DNA of 64,000 nucleotides, taken from NCBI GenBank assembly GCA_951406725.2, contig OX597818.1, forward strand, positions 6,262,001-6,326,000, given 5' to 3'. The translations under genes were made by a program, and so were the position numbers. The DNA comes from Octopus vulgaris. Taxonomy: Eukaryota. Position 1 is the first letter of the stretch. Each line of letters opens with the position of its first letter. Positions 7,523-54,079 of the stretch are shown piece after piece. Under the pieces are notes generated by a model. That model had not been told where the DNA came from, ran no database searches, and worked only from the letters and a program-made list of their open reading frames with translations.

Positions 7523-8352
7523 TTACTGTGTATATTTCTTATTTAGTATTCGGGAGGTTTCATTTATAAGGACGTACTCCCATATTTGTCTGAGTGTTGG
7601 GTTTTTTGGAAGCTTAGATAAGATGCGGATGTGAAGTTGACCCAAGTTACTTCCATGGTGGTCTTTGGCATGCTGGTAGAGTATAGAGGACTGTTTTCTG
7701 TCGTCATATTGTTTTAGATGTTCATTTATCGTTCCACAATGCTCCATGACGTCACCCATATATACATCATGTTCATGTCCTTACAAGTATCTTCTATGCA
7801 TCTTATGCTGTAAACTACATTTCGAGTTCTACAGTTAACACCAGGGCTAATCCTACACACCATGCAGTTATCATTGGTGCATATGGTATTCTCAAAGGGG
7901 TACGTCCTACATAGTTGTGATCTGACGGATTTCCCTGGCTTTTCAACAATTTTAATGTTGAGCTTGGTCTCCTTCAGGGGGGGGGGACTAGAAAGAAATT
8001 CGATAACATTGTACGTAATGATACCAGTGGTACCTGCCCTAGATATAGAAAGAAAGAATGGAATAGAATACAAAGAACTTGTGACAAAGCAAGCAGGGCG
8101 AACACGTGGTATAAAACCGACAAATATCAAGGAGTGATGTTTGTAGAGGCTACATCCCATGGAGAGCTAGGTCGTAGATTTAGAAAAGCTCTGAAGGAGA
8201 CCAGACTCAACGTTAAAATTGTTGAAAAGCCAGGGAAATCCGTCAGATCACAACTATATAGGACGTACCCCTTTACGAATACCATATGCACCAATGATAA
8301 CTGCATATTATGTAGGATTAACCCTGATGTTTGTACAACTCGAAATGTAGTA
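7523..8352. mobile_element. Penelope-like element GIY-YIG fragments in inverted (tail-to-tail) arrangement
   Basis: Minus strand 7523-7977 encodes KIVEKPGKSVRSQL..C..C..C.TRNVVYSIRC..C...YI, then SSILYQH..DHH and INETSRILNKK. Plus strand 8040-8352 carries an inverted second copy of the same linker/Cys region. Confidence 0.85.
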
Positions 8353-21510: not shown

Positions 21511-22267
21511 ATTTACCTTCACGCATACATGTATACACATATTTACTTTTCATTGCTTCACTGGAATTATATGAAGGAATGATATTTGTGTCATTCGCAT
21601 TGAATTTAAGAATACAAACTTTTAACCTGATATTCTGAACGGGTTCAAGTTAATTTCACTGAAACTTTATTAATACAATACTCCATTCTCACTGATATCT
21701 AATTATCTATTACGTTACATGGTCAAAGCATAAATAAAATTGAAATCACTTTGCAATTTATTATTTTATTTCCGTGTAATGGAGATTTAATTTACTGTTC
21801 ACCTCCCAAATTTCAAATATCTTTAAAATTAATTTTCTTTCTTTATCACCATCCATCAATGTAATCACAGTATTAATAATTTTCCATTTTCCCTTCATAT
21901 TCATGTCTCAGAGTGTACAAAAGAACATGACTATATACATCAGTGTGTAGATCGTCAAGCATTTCTTCTAAAAGGCATTGCGCTACTCTTGTGGAGATTA
22001 ATTTACTGTCATTGTTGTTTGTTCCAAAACAAACATGAAACTAAGCAGACAATACTCAAGACACGTACACATATTTGGAGTAGATAACGAGTAGTCCCGG
22101 ATTATAACATGCAGATTCACTTATAATATAGGTAAGCTGTCAACTTGAGGGATTATCAGAAGTTCTTAAGCCTGTTGAGCATGAACACTGGGATTAATTG
22201 TTTGAAATGTATAAATGGGAGATACGTTTATACAATACAGTTTAATGTATAATACAAACACACATAC

Positions 22268-22329
<62 letters not shown>

Positions 22330-22585
22330 TAATTAAGGGTAGAAATTGATATTAGTCAATTAAAACCAGTGGACTAGCATATTAAAAAGAATCCGAAGAT
22401 TTAAATATTTATATATACCAATTAAAGACCGAACACGAAAAGTGGACAGTCAACATGCTAGATATAGACGTCAAATCGCCATTCTCCACAAAAGATACAT
22501 TCGAACTTAATCGGTTGTACTTTATGCATGCGGCACTCCGGTATCGTTTTTTACATCTAGTCCAGCAAATTATGTTCATAACAGA

Positions 22586-22648
22586 CTATGCTGACGAAGT
22601 TACAGATATCCTTGCGGATATTAATAACTGAAACTGATCGGTACATAG
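22586..22648 (+). ncRNA. Type I hammerhead ribozyme (canonical core)
   Basis: Stem I CTATG/CATAG; core CTGACGA; stem II AGTTA..ATATCC-TTGC-GGATAT..TAACT; GAAA; near-palindromic helix III ACTGATCGGT; cleavage triplet GUA (after 22643). Confidence 0.88.
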
Positions 22649-23092
22649 GTGATTATTTCATTTCGTATATTTTCATTTGTCTTATTTACTGCTTTGGTTT
22701 GTGCTGAATTTTATTTTGTGAACATAATCTTTGTGGAGAATGGCGATTTGACGTCTATATCTAGCATGTTGACTGTCCACTTTTCGTGTTCAGTCCTTCA
22801 TTGGTATATATAAATATTTTAATCTTCGGATTCTTTTTAATATGCTAGTCCACTGGTTTTAATTGACTAATATCAATTTCTACCCTTAATTAATTTTAAT
22901 ATAAAATATATGTTCTTAAACTGATAAATTGACTGCTGCTAATTATTAGCTGCTGGCTGGTTTTTCGAGTCTCAGCGCGCCAAAGTAAAGGCATTTGAAA
23001 GATACATTCGAACTTAATCGGTTGTACTTTATGCATGCGGCACTCCGGTATCGTTTTTTGCATCTAGTCCAGCAAATTATGTTCATAACAGA

Positions 23093-23155
23093 CTATGCTG
23101 ACGAAGTTACAGATATCCTTGCGGATATTAATAACTGAAACTGATCGGTACATAG
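23093..23155 (+). ncRNA. Type I hammerhead ribozyme (second, identical copy)
   Basis: Same sequence as 22586-22648, 507 nt downstream. Confidence 0.88.
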
Positions 23156-23639
23156 GTGATTATTTCATTTCGTATATTTTCATTTGTCTTATTTATTGCT
23201 TTGGTTTGTGCTGAATTTTATTTTGAGAACATAATCTTTGTGGAGAATGGCGATTTGACGTCTATATCTAGCATGTTGACTGTCCACTTTTCGTGTTCAG
23301 TCCTTAATTGGTATATATATATATGTATGTATGTATGTGTGTATGTATGTTTATATGACGAGAGAGAGAGAGGAGGGGGTAGGCATGGATTACACATATG
23401 CAAACAAACAGACACAAAGAATATCAAAGTTTGTCTGAAATCAACAGAAAGAAATCCGTGTATCCACCAACGCTATTAGTTTTCCCCCGAGGCTATCGTG
23501 AGGTGAGATTGAGTTACACATCATCTCATTTATTTGATTTTCTGCTTGACCTACTTCGAGACCATACTAATCACAATGCAAGGATGGCTACGTGCGAGCA
23601 TATTTGCGACAGCTCATGATAGAAAAGAAACTCGCTTGG

Positions 23640-30060: not shown

Positions 30061-30078
30061 ATTTTTTCCTTATATTCT

Positions 30079-31178
30079 GTATTTAAATGGATCTTTTCCT
30101 TTTGATGGACGGAATTTTCTAGTTAACTAAACAATTTGAAACTTCGTATACTGGTAGAATGTGTCAAAAGAAAACATTATTGTAAACAAAATTGAAAACA
30201 AAATTGTAATTTGTAAGTTTAACGTAGTTTAATTCTTCGAATTTTAACCAATGAAATCCCAGCATTTGAGCTCAAATCATTTGCTGCGTTATCGATATTG
30301 ATAAAGAAACATAGCAGAAGCACGCCGCATACACACACACATATATTCAGATACATACACACGTACACTTGCACAAACATACACACACACACTCTCTGTC
30401 ACTATATATATCTCTCTCTCAAACACATGCATATATATTTGAACAAGCACATAGTAATTAATATATAAGCGTACACACACATACAAACGGAGATATACAT
30501 ACACACACATACGCAGCTTTGTCCCCTCTGTGTTTTGCCCCTTGCCGCAACAAATTTACACAAAAGGTAAATAAACCAGAAGGGGGGTCAATGTTTCATC
30601 GTTTCGGGGTCGATAAATTAAGTACAAATTACGCACTGGTGTCGAGGATTTTTCCCCAATTTATATCACAGCCTCCGACAAGCTGGGGCATCCGTTTATG
30701 AAAAATTATTTCGCAAAATTTTACAATACGACCCACACTCCACGCGCACCCTCTAGACCGATTTAGGCATATTATTATTTTCTTTTTGTTGTTTCTGGCC
30801 CTTCAAATCCATGGGAGAAGCCTTTTCGGTAACAAAAAATAAAGAAAATATTCTAAAAAATATCGTTCATATTTTTATTGGGCGACGAAATTCATCGATT
30901 TAAGAGATATAGCTGTCATTTCTAGCACATGCAAAAGACAGAAGAGAGAAGGATGAATAAGACGTGTGTGAGTTTTTAGACGCAGCAAATGAATTGAGCT
31001 CAAATGCTGGGATTTCATTGGTTAAAATTCGAAGAATTAAACTACGTTAAACTTACAAATTACAATTTTGTTTACAATAATGTTTTCTTTTGACACATTC
31101 TAGCAGTATACGAAGTTTCAAATTGTTTAGTTAACTAGAAAATTCCGTCCATCAAAAGGAAAAGATCCATTTGAATAC
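30079..31178. mobile_element. MITE/foldback-like element with ~200-bp terminal inverted repeats
   Basis: 30079-30288 is the near-perfect reverse complement of 30980-31178 (one ~12-bp indel). Interior holds a (CA)n tract and a SINE core fragment at ~30590-30645. Confidence 0.85.
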
Positions 31179-31930
31179 AATATTTTTCGAGTGACGCCAA
31201 ATGTTTTGCGCTTATATTTTTTCCAGCACATAGGCAGACACATGTACGGACGCACACACACACACATACAAACATACATACACACATACATACATGCATA
31301 CATATATACATACATGCATACATATATACTTACATGCATACATACACGCACATACACACACACACACACGAACATATGTGTGTGTGTTTTGAGCAACTGA
31401 ATGCCACGCATCCCGAATATTGTTAACAGCAAGTTTTTTACATTTTTTGCGATGCTATTTCTGTCTTTCTTACTTCCTTTCTTTCTTTCTCTTTCGTCAT
31501 CATATTCCACTTCCGGCATCCCATCTTCCTCTCCCTCTCTCTCTCTCTCGTCTTCTCACTTGTAATTGTGGACTTTCTGCCTTCTTTTCTTTTGTGTTAT
31601 CTCGACCGCGGTCTCTCTCACATCCCCTTTCCTTCTATCACGTGACCCGTGACTAATTTTCCCATCTCTCTGTCTTTTCGCCACTGAATGCTTAGCTTAC
31701 CGATCAACACTCATCTTCTCTTTTCCTATTTCTCTTTCTATATTCATTTAATATTTCTTCTAAGCCTTACCCACCATCCTAGTGTTTGGCCGAAAGGCTG
31801 TAGTTCTCCCGTCTCCGTGTATCTCTTCAAATTACATTTGTTTAATTTTGTACTTCTATCTTGTATTGTTTTATTTGCTCGAGCCCTACTTCTCAGTAAA
31901 TTTTGCAGGTGTCTATATATATATATATAT

Positions 31931-33525: not shown

Positions 33526-33722
33526 TTCTTCTTCTTCTTCTTCTTCTTCTTCTTCTTCTTCTTCTTCTTCTTCTTCTTCTTCTTCTTCTTCTTCTTCTTC
33601 TTCTTCTTCTTCTTTTTCTTCTTCTTTTTCTTCTTCTTCTTTTTCTTCTTCTTCATCATTATCATCATCGTCATCATCTTCTCCTTCTTCTTCTTCTACT
33701 TCTTCTTCTTCCCCTCTTCTTC
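33526..33722. repeat. (CTT)n microsatellite
   Basis: Direct reading. Confidence 0.95.
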
Positions 33723-34067
33723 CTAGCTTCATCACTAATGCGTTTTAGTATAACACCTACGCAAATTCCATAAACAAACCTTCAATAGAAATATTTTCAT
33801 GAATTGAACAGCAGGAACTGCTAGCAACCACTGACCAACGACAATCAAGGCAATCCCAAATTCTTCCTAACCCTAACCCTCCTCCTCCTCGTCCTCCTTC
33901 TTCTTCTTCCCTACCGAGAATTTACATGGACCTTGAACCCACAAAAGTAAACAAGAGCGACAGAGAAAGGCAGAAACAAGGAAAATGCCACTTATATTTG
34001 AACACTTTACAAATATTCTTTTAAAAAAACTTATCTTTTAATTTTTCTAAATTTAATTATTTAATTG

Positions 34068-34110
34068 TTACAGTTGAAAAGGTTTCAAATGACCGAAACC
34101 GGTACTGAAA
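34068..34110 (+). ncRNA. Minimal hammerhead ribozyme, U3-A8 core variant
   Basis: CAG TTGAAAA GGTT-TCAAAT-GACC GAA ACCGGT A CTG. Palindromic helix III ACCGGT, GUA triplet, short stem I. Confidence 0.72.
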
Positions 34111-34133
34111 TGTTCTTTATAAAATTATTTTAC

Positions 34134-34188: not shown

Positions 34189-35032
34189 GAGGGCATTATA
34201 CATACATACAGAGGGCATTATACATACATGCCACACGCTAAGAGGGACAATTAGTCATTTCTACCAAAAATATTACTAATCCCACCGAATGCAATTTTTC
34301 AAAGTAAGGTCTATATTTTTTGTGTCTTACTTTGAAAAATTGCATTCGGTGGGATTAGTAATATTTTTGGTAGAAATGACTAATTGTCCCTCTTAGCGTG
34401 TGGCATGTATGTATAATGCCCTCTATATATAAATTAATATGTTCAATAAGAAATAATCATTTTCGAAATTTATTCTCTTATGAGGTTTTCACGCTATCTA
34501 CCTGACAATTTCTTGTTAAGTTTTCCTTATTAAGTAGTTGTCCTTAATTGCTAAATTTTTATTCCGAAAAAACTTTTCCTTTCCCGAAATGCAATTCGTA
34601 AAAGTATGCCATTTACAGGATGTAATATATGTAAACTCACCCATGTGCTTCGTTGATGTTGATCAGTTAGCTGATCGACTTAAGCGGGGCAGGGTCGTTT
34701 GTTTATGTATGATACATTCAGGCCTGCTGATGAGTACGTAAGTATTAAATCACTGTGATACAGGTCTATATTTTTTAAATGTCTTACTTTGAAAAATTGC
34801 ATTCGGTGGGATTAGTAATATTTTTGGTAGAAATGACTAATTGTCCCTCTTAGCGTGTGGCATGTATGTATAATGCCCTCTGGCATGTATGTATAATGCC
34901 CTCTATATATAAATTAATATGTTCAATAAGAAATAATTATTTTCGAAATTTATTCTCTTATGAGGTTTTCACGCTATCTACCTGACAATTTCTTGTTAAG
35001 TTTTCCTTATTAAGTAGTTGTCCTTAATTGCT
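34183..35032 (+). mobile_element. ORF-less retrozyme/mini-PLE-like element in (TA)n: 125-bp inverted arm plus 455-bp-period tandem units
   Basis: 34183-34308 is the reverse complement of ~34782-34910; 34307-34551 is repeated at 34762-35032; HHR at the unit junction. Confidence 0.87.
34720..34767 (+). ncRNA. Type I hammerhead ribozyme, G12 mutated in this copy
   Basis: Stem I AGGCCTG/CAGGTCT; core CTGATGA; stem II GTAC-GTAA-GTAT; TAAA in place of GAAA; helix III ATCAC-T-GTGAT; cleavage after 34760. Confidence 0.72.
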
Positions 35033-38173: not shown

Positions 38174-38211
<38 letters not shown>

Positions 38212-38214
<3 letters not shown>

Positions 38215-39900
38215 CAAAATAAGCAACAAGGATATCCAAGGTAGAGTAGTACAATTGTTTCATGCTACTTCATTTTATTAAACACTGTAAGTATTACATC
38301 AGTTGTAAAATGCGGAGCAATCTTCAACCACATATAGAATTTATTCAATTAGATGGGCAATGCACATTCTTTTACTTATTTCGTTTGCCAGCATCATAAA
38401 GAGGGTAGATATATAGACAGAAAGGTTAATTTCATCTTTAAAAGGATGATGGTAGTATGTTCGTTCTCCGTCTGTAGATTTTATCATTGGGTTCACTTTG
38501 TTATTTAGATCTATCAGTGGGGAGTTTTTTTTTATTCTTGGTTGAATGGAGACAAACAAGATTTGTTTCTATTTATAGATAGAGAAAGGGTAGTACAAAT
38601 GTCAAAACCATAAACCCATCCTCATTTTGAGGAATTCAGTTTAGGGCTTAAGTTAGTGGGGTAGGGAGAATAGAGACTACTAATGCTCTAGAAGTTTTCA
38701 ATGTGCCTTACCATTTAACAGCCAAATTCTATATTGTGAATTTTAAATAAATATCCTTTACATGATTTTCTAAAGGGTTTTAATAAATATTAATATATTA
38801 TATAGGGATAGAAAATATCGAAATCATTTCATATCTATATAAATATTCATATATATCTATTTCTATCAATATAGAATCATAATTAGTTAGTAAATAGTGA
38901 TTTATTTTATTAATGAGTTGAATTAAAAGAATATGTTAGACATATTTACTAACTGTAGAAAAAACCCTTATCCATTTAGCACATATATCAGGAGTCAATA
39001 AGATATATTAAAAAGTAATGGAAGGGTGCTAATCAAGATGAATTAAGTAATTTCCCTAGATATATAGAATTTTTTGCAATCCCATATGGGAGAGTATCAA
39101 GTATTCAAATTTATTTATATAATGAAATTTCTTAGTAATCTATGTAGGTTAAATAACAGCTAGTATGGTATACTAATTCCTTATTTGGTTACAAAATATT
39201 AAGATTTGAGAATTTAGGAATGGTCAGAATGTTATTATTTAAAATACTTAAAAGTACTGTTGCACAATATATACAGGATAATCCCAGTTCAGAACGGTTA
39301 TTCAATAAGTTTGTATTATTCCTATGTTTCAAAATTTCATATGTCTTCATAAAACAAAGTTCACATCTATCACTACTATTTTTTATAAGGCTGTGCCTTT
39401 CTTATTATATCCCATCTTACGTTAAATTCTATATTTTTTCTTTCAGGTCCCAAATTTTACTGGACAGCGTTATGCAACCCACCTTTTGTTTGAGTCTAAA
39501 AGAAGAAAAATGATTGTTCAAACGTTTCTTTAGAACCATCGAACATCCGAAATAAAGATAGCTATTATTTAAAGTTATTATTGTACATTTATAACTTACA
39601 TTTTGAACCAGACAATGACCAGATACCGGACATTTTGATCTAATTATAAAATTACAACTGGGTGGATGATTCCTTATATTAGTATTAGTTAGAAACACGC
39701 TGTTTTAATTTTCATTACTAGAGTTATTATTAGCATTAGTGTTATTTCCCTTATCTATAATTATATTGTTATGTAAGTCAGGGTTGTTTCTTACTAGTCT
39801 TTGACAAATTTCCTCACTTTTCACAATTTTATTTTTATCATTTATATTATTGATATTATTATTATCATTGTTTATATTATTATTATCATTATTATCATTA
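38212..39900 (-). mobile_element. PLE 3' half: Asn-rich linker, GIY-YIG endonuclease and long 3' region
   Basis: ORF 39429-39698 reads SCN...KCPVSGHCLVQNVSYKCTI...YFGCS...KKRLNNHFSSF...TLSSKIWDLK, followed by C.LC..KTYEI and LLNNRSE. The 3' end abuts (TA)n. Confidence 0.85.
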
Positions 39901-52789: not shown

Positions 52790-54079
52790 CGAGGGGCGTT
52801 CAATAAGTAATGCCCCTGACCCACTTCCTATACCAGTAGAGCAACGAAACTTGGCACAGTTATTAGTTTTATCTACATAAAGACATAAATGCGTAGCACC
52901 ATCCAGTGTTACGCATTTCTCTCATCGTTTGATGCAGCTCTGGAGGCCGTTTTTGTAGAAGACCCCAGCTTGGTCCTCCAACCACGACGTGACTACAGAA
53001 ATTAAGGCTGCATCATCTGAGAAACGCTTTCCTTTTAAAAACCACTTCATGGCGTGGAAGAGGTGAAAATCAGAGGGTGCAAGGTCAGGAGAGTAGGGAT
53101 GGGGGAGGAGTTCATAGCCGCACGCCTGTGCTTCTGATCTGGCGACACGCGAGTTGTGGACCGGAGCGTTGTACTGCAGGAGGAGGATGCCTTTGCTGAT
53201 CTTGCCCCGCCTCTTGATTTTGATAGTTTCTCTTAATTTCCTCAAATGTGAAGCATAATAAGATCCTGTAATTGTGGTACCCTTTTCCAGGAAATTTGTC
53301 ATCACTACTCCGTCCTGGTCCCAGAAGACTGTGAGCATGACCTTGCCAACGGAGGGCTGCACCCTTGCGTTCTTTGGAGGAGATAAGTCACGGTGCTTCC
53401 ACTGCATTGACTGGGCGTTGGTCTCTGGATCATAGTGATGGACCCAGGTTTCATCCTGTGTAATCCGTCTTTTGAAAAATGTTGACTCATCTTCTTGGCA
53501 CATCTCCAAATTCATCCTCGAGCACCCGACGCGTTCTTGCTTCTGGAAAAGTGTAAGCCACCTGGGAATCCATCTGGCAGACACCTTTTGCATTTACAAA
53601 TCGTCATGAATGATAGTTTCTACAGAGCCGGTACTAATCCTGACCTCATGGGCTATTTGGTGAATAGTTATGCGTCGATCTTCCAAAATTGCAGCCTCAA
53701 CTTGACAGACAGATGCAGAAGGGGGGGGCGACCAGATCTGGGAGCTGTTTCCACAGAATTCCGACCATGTTTGAATTCACGATGCCAGCATTTTACTAGG
53801 TCATATGATGGGGCATCATCACCACAAGTTACTTTCATTTCATCAAAAGTCTCCCGTGGTGTGCATCCTTTCAAATACAAAAACCGGATCACAGCTCGAC
53901 ACTCAACAGGCTCCATTTCACACTTGACTCAGTTCAAACAGCTGTAAATCAGAAACCACAATTAGTTCAGAGCTGTAATTTGCCACTTAATCTATAGAGA
54001 TATATAATAATTGCACAAATTTCAGCTAGATCAGACAAATGCAAGTGGATCAGGGGCATTACTTATTGAACGGCCCTCG
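52790..54079 (-). mobile_element. Full-length mariner (irritans/Himar1-like) transposon
   Basis: ~30-bp TIRs CGAGGGGCGTTCAATAAGTAATGCCCCTGA with 1 mismatch; TA TSD on both sides; 1290 bp. Confidence 0.97.
52922..53916 (-). pseudogene. Mariner DD34D transposase pseudogene
   Basis: MEPVECRAVIRFLYLKG, ARWIPRWL, TQDETWVHHYDPE, LLQYNAPVH (catalytic D>Y) and YSPDLAPSDFHLF; frameshift near 53700 and premature stop at 52922. Confidence 0.93.

What the first reader, a model, noticed from the sequence alone, without database searches (positions are those of the whole stretch)
22327..23312. Two intact tandem hammerheads 507 nt apart: candidate retrozyme producing a ~507-nt (circular) RNA
Seen: identical HHRs at 22586-22648 and 23093-23155 within a non-coding tandem unit. 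Helix III (ACTGATCGGT) is nearly palindromic. Known: animal non-LTR retrozymes are tandem HHR units that yield monomeric circRNAs, and palindromic helix III allows dimeric cleavage. Inference: read-through transcription would release a 22644-23150 monomer that is mobilised in trans by a PLE RT. The unit is longer than most described animal retrozymes.
Basis: partly seen in the sequence, partly recalled or inferred. Interest (0 to 1): 0.85.

Follow-up and report, generated by a model that had tools for sequence, protein, structure and literature searches.

The report
Hammerhead retrozyme with Penelope insertion footprint
A 507-base non-coding repeat with a conserved hammerhead (self-cutting RNA) motif sits at hundreds of places in this animal genome in the two-armed pattern that Penelope-type jumping genes leave, so it is likely a 'retrozyme' parasite copied by their enzyme, probably from a circular RNA.

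Summary
Observation confirmed: two identical type I hammerheads lie 507 nt apart. They belong to one insertion of a dispersed non-coding family (1,396 exact hits of a 26-mer). In 36 of 38 clean pairs, one arm uses each site. A young coding Penelope-like family (RT + GIY-YIG) in the same genome follows this rule in 16 of 16 loci. The hammerhead core is conserved and its stems covary. No arm starts at the cut site (0 of 129), so the template is not a cut linear monomer; a ligated circle is likelier than an uncut multimer. No coding parent sharing the unit's sequence was found; one copy is fused to a coding fragment. Cleavage and circles are untested. Verdict: new member of the animal non-LTR retrozymes, with unusually direct evidence of Penelope-type insertion. 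The scan noted a similar, hammerhead-less architecture in another genome (e1-7810660, unchecked).

The parts
22264..22326 (.). Left (TA)n-rich microsatellite, the inferred target
22319..22492 (-). Inverted arm: unit positions about +87 to +268 after the cut site; its 3' end (long site) runs into the left (TA)n
22491..22493 (.). Head-to-head joint of the two arms, with 2-3 nt of A microhomology
22493..22643 (+). 5'-truncated partial unit (about +355 to +507) ending at the first cut site
22586..22648 (+). Type I hammerhead 1; predicted cut 22643|22644
22633..22642 (+). Palindromic helix III (A15.1 to U16.1), predicted to pair with the second hammerhead
22644..23150 (+). Complete 507-nt monomer, cut site to cut site; non-coding and strongly folded (z -5.0 linear, -3.3 as a circle)
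22808..22817 (+). Short end site (TATATA run, BLAST end +174), one of two fixed 3' ends of family arms
22818..22911 (+). About 94-nt 'tail' between the short site and the long site (BLAST end +268); both ends are blurred by a few bases by the TA run
23093..23155 (+). Type I hammerhead 2, identical to hammerhead 1; predicted cut 23150|23151
23151..23324 (+). Last partial unit (+1 to about +174), ending at the short site in (TA)n
23312..23357 (.). Right TA/TATG microsatellite, the inferred target

Best explanation
This is one insertion of a non-coding, hammerhead-bearing 507-nt repeat family that likely moves as a non-autonomous Penelope-like element (an animal non-LTR retrozyme), probably copied from a circular RNA by a Neptune-type reverse transcriptase-endonuclease. 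Shown: tandem units; a conserved, covarying hammerhead; two arms joined head-to-head; two fixed 3' ends in (TA)n; the same anatomy in coding Penelope-like elements of this genome. Inferred steps: (1) read-through transcription of a locus with two hammerheads, such as this one; (2) the two hammerheads pair through palindromic helix III and cut; (3) the monomer is ligated to a circle; (4) a Penelope-like protein nicks both strands of (TA)n, and each nick primes at one of two internal sites about 94 nt apart; (5) each cDNA runs a variable distance, sometimes several turns; (6) the two cDNAs join by microhomology.
For: Dispersal: 1,396 exact 26-mer hits, control 0. The first 100 hits fall in 59 loci by my count, 29 with a minus-then-plus pair and none plus-then-minus. 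Fixed ends: 117 of 129 arms end at one of two sites, 112 of these in (TA)n; 36 of 38 clean head-to-head pairs are mixed, p=5e-9. The same rule holds in a young 775-aa coding family with a 32-nt tail: 16 of 16 loci with both ends read. A tail at one end only, and tail = the stretch between two internal RT start sites, are described for Penelope-like elements (PMC8557442, PMC11167929). Hammerhead selection: 87 of 96 complete copies keep all 12 core positions; 0 of 12 core columns versus 51 of 119 other columns are polymorphic, p=0.003; 11 of 21 pairs change on both sides, 98.2% of cells pair, 0 of 500 shuffles reach this; helix III stays palindromic through sequence changes. For a circle: 68 of 129 arms cross a cut site, up to 5 times, and none starts at it; 98 of 98 junctions are exact; units within a locus differ at 0-5 sites and share locus-specific alleles. 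One 99%-identical copy is fused head-to-head, by 4-nt microhomology, to a coding RT/GIY-YIG fragment (L060). Weak hint only: three contigs of guessed-RNA runs (one study) start at 23151, and one of another study ends there.
Against: No cleavage, monomer or circle was observed. At least six contigs of guessed-RNA runs span the cut site, which fits uncut RNA as well as circles. In the one Penelope-like element reconstituted in vitro, cleavage was dispensable and uncut RNA was the main template (PMC11167929). Only 1 of 9 Xenopus dimers cleaved in vitro (2026 preprint), and metazoan Penelope hammerheads cleave poorly (PMC4209133). The young coding family spreads with a U4-to-C core change, so Penelope-type movement does not need an intact hammerhead. 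No coding element with DNA similarity to the unit was found, so the partner is unidentified; the chimera is 1 of 70 loci and also includes a third family. The loci were not a random sample.
Confidence: 0.6

Rival explanations
1. Same non-autonomous Penelope-type element, but the template is the uncut read-through multimer. The hammerhead only trims or regulates the RNA, and no circle is copied.
For: Uncut RNA was the dominant template in vitro, and no reads ended at the cut site (PMC11167929). Coding families form exact tandems too (L218). Contigs span the cut site. Exact junctions are expected from uncut RNA as well.
Against: Arrays copied from linear multimers could only shorten, yet arms with 2-5 crossings occur in several subfamilies. 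The core is conserved in the non-coding family while the young coding family has a core change.
Confidence: 0.27
2. The arrays arose after insertion by local tandem amplification (unequal crossing-over) of single, truncated copies, as proposed in the 2026 preprint.
For: Units within a locus are nearly identical, and in L065 the two full units of one arm share two alleles that the other arm lacks.
Against: Arrays sit inside two-armed insertions with fixed ends, often multimeric on both arms (L064, L065). The period is always the full unit. Arms that cross a cut site once already need a permuted template.
Confidence: 0.05
3. These are 5'-truncated pLTR remnants of a coding Penelope-like element, not an independent element.
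For: The anatomy is identical to truncated coding copies. The genome holds thousands of GIY-YIG candidates, of which only 150 were scored per search.
Against: Arms long enough to leave the unit re-enter the same unit. No family locus continues in tandem into an ORF (99 loci). The 5' flanks of 20 single-arm loci share no sequence. An older subfamily (~75% identical) has the same non-coding unit.
Confidence: 0.04
4. Cut linear monomers are the templates, and tandems arise by the RT jumping from one monomer's 5' end to another's 3' end.
For: The hammerhead is under selection. The L060 chimera suggests that template jumps between RNAs occur.
Against: No arm stops at the cut site (0 of 129), and 98 of 98 junctions lack any added or lost base.
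Confidence: 0.04

Closest known systems
Animal non-LTR retrozymes (Cervera & de la Pena 2020, PMC7229834; Li, Clavereau & Pollet 2026, 10.64898/2026.07.22.740005)
   Same: Non-coding, low-GC tandem units, each with a type I hammerhead with a short palindromic helix III; dimers to small multimers; co-occurring Penelope-like elements.
   Different: 507 nt, longer than the 170-400 nt circles shown by experiment. The insertions carry an inverted arm, two fixed ends and (TA)n targeting, which I did not find described for retrozymes in the passages read or in searches. No pLTR homology to a coding family was found. Expression and circles are not shown.
EN+ Penelope-like elements of the Neptune/Nematis type (PMC8557442; mechanism in Poseidon PAc, PMC11167929)
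   Same: Partial tandems, an inverted 5'-truncated arm, a tail at one end only, (TA)n targets, and a hammerhead upstream of the ends.
   Different: No ORF. The tail is about 94 nt instead of 30-40. The hammerhead core is better conserved than in the youngest coding family here.
Non-autonomous Chlamys elements such as MRC1 (PMC8557442)
   Same: Non-coding Penelope-type elements with multicopy head-to-tail insertions.
   Different: Those generally share 3' sequence with an autonomous family, and most Chlamys lack hammerheads. This unit has a hammerhead and no detected sequence partner.

Membership tests
Animal non-LTR retrozyme | At least two consecutive units, each with a complete type I hammerhead | tested here: met
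   (16 of 129 arms cross two or more cut sites)
Animal non-LTR retrozyme | No protein-coding capacity | tested here: met
   No ORF of 120 aa or more; no tblastn match of Penelope-like proteins within the unit or the window
Animal non-LTR retrozyme | Unit of a few hundred bases, GC under 45-50% | tested here: met
   507 nt; GC 0.31 in 22001-23000; published range 51-972 bp
Animal non-LTR retrozyme | Hammerhead structure under selection, palindromic helix III | tested here: met
Animal non-LTR retrozyme | Self-cleavage in vitro | not testable with these tools
   Needs a transcription assay
Animal non-LTR retrozyme | Accumulation as linear and circular monomer RNA | tested here: inconclusive
   Only assembled contigs of guessed-RNA runs under another species label; some end at the cut site and some span it
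Animal non-LTR retrozyme | Sequence similarity to the pLTR of a coding Penelope-like element (seen for 21 of 57 Xenopus-family matches in the 2026 preprint; not universal) | tested here: inconclusive
   None among the coding loci fetched; the genome's Penelope-like families were only sampled
EN+ Penelope-like element (autonomous) | ORF with RT and GIY-YIG endonuclease | tested here: not met
   so it is not filed as an autonomous element
Penelope-type insertion (works like) | Partial tandem plus inverted 5'-truncated arm | tested here: met
   48 head-to-head joints in 70 loci; 17 of 19 position-picked loci have an inverted arm
Penelope-type insertion (works like) | Tail at one end only (two internal RT start sites) | tested here: met
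   36 of 38 clean pairs are mixed; the tail is ~94 nt rather than 30-40
Penelope-type insertion (works like) | (TA)n target preference as in Neptune/Naiad | tested here: met
   112 of 117 fixed ends abut (TA)n; empty sites and target duplications could not be examined
Plant LTR retrozyme | Type III hammerhead in LTRs with PBS/PPT and 4-bp TSD | tested here: not met
   Type I topology and a tandem unit without a unique internal region

The most novel reading that the evidence does not exclude
The family is a genomic record of rolling-circle target-primed reverse transcription. A Penelope-like RT dimer primes both nicked strands of a (TA)n target at two different fixed sites on a hammerhead-made RNA circle, and can take different RNAs for its two arms. 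Hammerhead circles would then be parasites that sequence-unrelated Neptune-type proteins recognise by structure. This genome holds at least two such unrelated circle families with ~100-nt tails, beside intact, near-identical coding partners that make the mechanism testable in vitro.
Probability: 0.35. Interest if true: 0.72.

Novelty: new member of a known kind. Interest (0 to 1): 0.5.

Why it matters
That animal retrozymes are moved by Penelope-like elements has so far rested on co-occurrence and pLTR similarity; the 2026 preprint says the mobilisation mechanism remains to be elucidated. Here the retrozyme insertions carry the Penelope footprint itself and obey the same one-long-end, one-short-end rule as coding elements of the same genome. 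Arms cross the cut site exactly and never stop at it. With intact, near-identical coding partners available, the family makes two open questions testable: whether retrozyme circles are RT templates, and how the Penelope tail and inversion arise. The class itself is known, and this locus is one of several hundred.

Tried and rejected
Rfam at gathering threshold and at E<=10: no hammerhead hit, so it gives no support. The minimum-energy fold of a single hammerhead does not give the three-way junction cleanly, as expected for a weak helix III. Search for a coding parent: blastn of the unit against GIY-YIG loci, 781-aa, 775-aa and 'PLE-2' loci found no homology in the coding elements; hits in L167 and L208/L224 were separate neighbouring family insertions. 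A 74% diverged hit in L023 led to an older non-coding subfamily, not a parent. I first read the hammerhead in L060 as the 3' UTR of the coding fragment; one search showed it belongs to a separate family, so that reading was dropped. Sequencing runs: no RNA holder listed; three guessed-RNA runs under the same species label held next to none of the words. This is no evidence on expression. One contig (X12) carries 14 foreign letters at 23148 that I recognise from memory as a template-switch adaptor whose end resembles the sequence at the cut site; a true 5' end and strand invasion cannot be told apart, so it is not counted. One search mislabelled four core positions by one base and was redone. 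One search's automatic de-duplication failed, so 25 duplicate loci were removed by hand, and 29 older-subfamily loci were left out of the end counts. Five arms scored as starting at +1 were BLAST breaks in diverged copies that continue. One mis-parsed unit (L027+2) was ignored. The circular-fold shuffle used a simple sampler with 40 shuffles. No earlier notes exist for this genome.

Full report
OBSERVATION. The two hammerheads are real and identical (22586-22648, 23093-23155). They are the only matches of a type I descriptor in the window, against 0.02 expected per 64 kb. Predicted cuts after GUA give a 507-nt monomer, 22644-23150. It has no ORF of 120 aa and folds far better than shuffles (z -5.0, 0 of 100 as good). 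Helix III is self-complementary with G-U pairs. Rfam misses the motif.

ANATOMY OF THE LOCUS. From left to right: (TA)n; an inverted arm covering unit positions about +268 back to +87; a 2-3-nt microhomology joint; a direct arm of 153 nt + full monomer + about 174 nt; (TA)n. Both outer ends are 3' ends of the element. Positions count from the cut site; BLAST ends of 174 and 268 are blurred by a few bases because the sites are themselves TA-rich.

THE FAMILY. The genome G000 has 2.8 Gb in 227 contigs. Its size and microsatellite load recall an octopus; this is recalled and not tested. The unit has 1,540 first-look candidates. A 26-mer occurs 1,396 times exactly, reversed control 0; the 100 listed hits form 59 loci by my count, which extrapolates to roughly 800 loci. 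An older subfamily, about 75% identical with 2,311 candidates, has the same non-coding unit and the same two ends. Of 124 family loci fetched, I dropped 25 duplicates by hand and set aside 29 of the older subfamily, leaving 70 loci with 129 arms. This sample is not random: most were chosen by similarity or by a hammerhead pattern, and 19 by position on one contig. 63 arms end at the short site, 54 at the long site and 12 elsewhere; 112 of the 117 fixed ends abut (TA)n. Of 48 head-to-head pairs, 36 have one end of each kind, 2 have the same end, and 10 involve a fragment (binomial p=5e-9 on 38). 28 of 48 joints overlap by 2 nt or more, and in 12 of 48 both arms start within 10 nt of the same unit position.

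NOT A pLTR REMNANT. Long arms always re-enter the same unit, up to five cut sites in one arm (L064). The 5' flanks of 20 single-arm loci share nothing. tblastn with Penelope-like proteins found coding fragments near 5 distinct family loci. Of the three I read in full, only L060 is joined directly to a 5' end, and there the fragment is inverted rather than in tandem; L071 and L077 lie beyond an arm's 3' end by their coordinates.

THE HAMMERHEAD IS SELECTED. 87 of 96 complete copies (56 loci) keep all 12 core positions, and 9 have one change each. No core column is polymorphic, against 51 of 119 others (p=0.003). Stem I occurs as five fully Watson-Crick variants, and helix III remains a palindrome in its main variants. 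On 19 hand-picked distinct copies of the 56 distinct matches, 98.2% of cells pair and 11 of 21 pairs change on both sides; no shuffle of 500 reaches this, and slid controls pair 26-43%. The pick passed a hammerhead filter, so the percentage leans high, and related sequences inflate cell counts.

CODING PARTNERS. The genome holds intact RT + GIY-YIG elements with the Cx2-5CxxC linker of the Neptune/Nematis type (PMC8557442): a 781-aa family and a very young 775-aa family with many equal-scoring copies. In 18 loci of the latter, 16 had both ends readable, and all 16 had one short and one long end (32-nt tail) in (TA)n. Its hammerhead has C in place of U4 in every copy printed, while an older relative has the intact core (L034). 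None of these coding elements shares DNA with the unit. About 48 kb from the finding, a 99%-identical arm is joined head-to-head, by 4-nt microhomology, to the 3' coding part of a third coding family (88-89% to about 2,100 candidates), which runs on into a separate hammerhead family 'C' and then (TA)n. This is 1 of 70 loci. It suggests, but does not prove, that one integration event can use different RNAs.

WHICH RNA IS COPIED. A cut linear monomer would give arms no longer than 174 or 268 nt that pile up at +1. Instead 68 of 129 arms cross the cut site, 16 cross it twice or more, and none starts within 5 nt of it. Five apparent cases were alignment breaks. All 98 junctions read GTA|C with no indel. 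Units within a locus differ at 0-5 sites and share locus-specific alleles: seven columns separate all L064 units from all L065 units; L010 and L012 are each internally identical and differ from one another at 3 sites. This fits rolling round a ligated circle, as proposed for Penelope hammerheads in PMC4209133, or an uncut homogeneous multimer. I favour the circle about 2 to 1, because multimer donors can only shorten and because the core is conserved in the non-coding family. Against it: PMC11167929 found cleavage dispensable and uncut RNA dominant for a coding element. None of the 19 position-picked loci has two cut sites in one arm, so the window's locus is among the minority that could release a monomer.

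EXPRESSION. No holder is on record as RNA, and all data are contigs under another species label. In eight runs laid, seven of them guessed RNA, three contigs of one study start at 23151, one of another study ends there, and at least six span the site. This is a weak hint at most.

LITERATURE SEEN. 10.64898/2026.07.22.740005: parts 1-3 of 5 (abstract to discussion); supplements closed, and they may list similar families, though the text names 31 vertebrates, three insects and one coral. PMC11167929: parts 1-2 of 4. PMC4209133: parts 1-2 of 4. PMC7229834 and PMC8557442: passages only. Other papers: search listings only. Searches for a cephalopod hammerhead/Penelope family and for retrozymes with inverted, microsatellite-targeted insertions returned no description of this family. 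The library lacks most subscription papers and Repbase, so it may be catalogued elsewhere. A tail at one end only, inverted arms, (TA)n bias and a frameshifted ORF1 are all known Penelope features.

VERDICT. A real, well-supported animal non-LTR retrozyme, that is, a non-autonomous Penelope-type element: about 0.9 for that identity and about 0.6 for the full mechanism with a circular template. It is a new member of a known kind, with a longer tail and clearer insertion footprint than I found described. Interest 0.5.

Noticed in passing
L060:487-2281 (G000:C5:6235000-6239500): Three-part insertion: a family arm joined head-to-head to a coding RT/GIY-YIG 3' fragment that continues into hammerhead family C; (TA)n at both ends.
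   Followed up: partly
L176-L205; a degenerate copy at window 38209-38338: A second, unrelated hammerhead family 'C' (4,036 candidates) with palindromic helix III, (TA)n ends and two end sites about 100 nt apart; inverted arms mostly use the other site. No coding sequence lies directly upstream in the 29 other loci; unit length not determined.
   Followed up: partly
L206-L223: Very young 775-aa Penelope-like family, 4.27-kb tandem period, many near-identical copies; its hammerhead carries a U4-to-C core change.
   Followed up: partly
L049:381-4081, L051, L054: 781-aa Penelope-like family with an upstream ORF of about 466 aa overlapping the RT frame in -1 relation; a T-rich possible slippery site in most copies; no Pfam family over cut-off. 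No intact hammerhead was found in its pLTR.
   Followed up: partly
L005:611-672, L128:2800-2862, L034:627-696, L038:39-123, L042:2961-3021, L050:835-905: Further, different hammerhead-like motifs turned up by chance in flanks; the genome seems rich in hammerhead families.
   Followed up: no
window 33644-34132: 3' non-coding end of the coding family seen in L060 (78% identical), between two (TA)n runs.
   Followed up: partly
window 34203-34431: Near-perfect 106-nt inverted repeat next to a (TA)n run; MITE-like or a fold-back insertion.
   Followed up: no
window 7837-8331: 141-nt inverted repeat around coding-looking sequence with a cysteine-cluster motif; looks like a head-to-head Penelope-like fragment, but has no Pfam hit.
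   Followed up: partly
window 30078-31179: Element of about 1.1 kb with 120-nt terminal inverted repeats, 98% complementary; probably a DNA transposon derivative.
   Followed up: no
window 52922-53593 (-): Transposase fragment (PF01359, E 2.5e-24).
   Followed up: partly
family joints at unit positions about 57, 65, 74 and 90-97: In 12 of 48 joints both arms begin at nearly the same unit position, clustering at these sites; possibly a structural RT stop or a fold-back. Unexplained.
   Followed up: no
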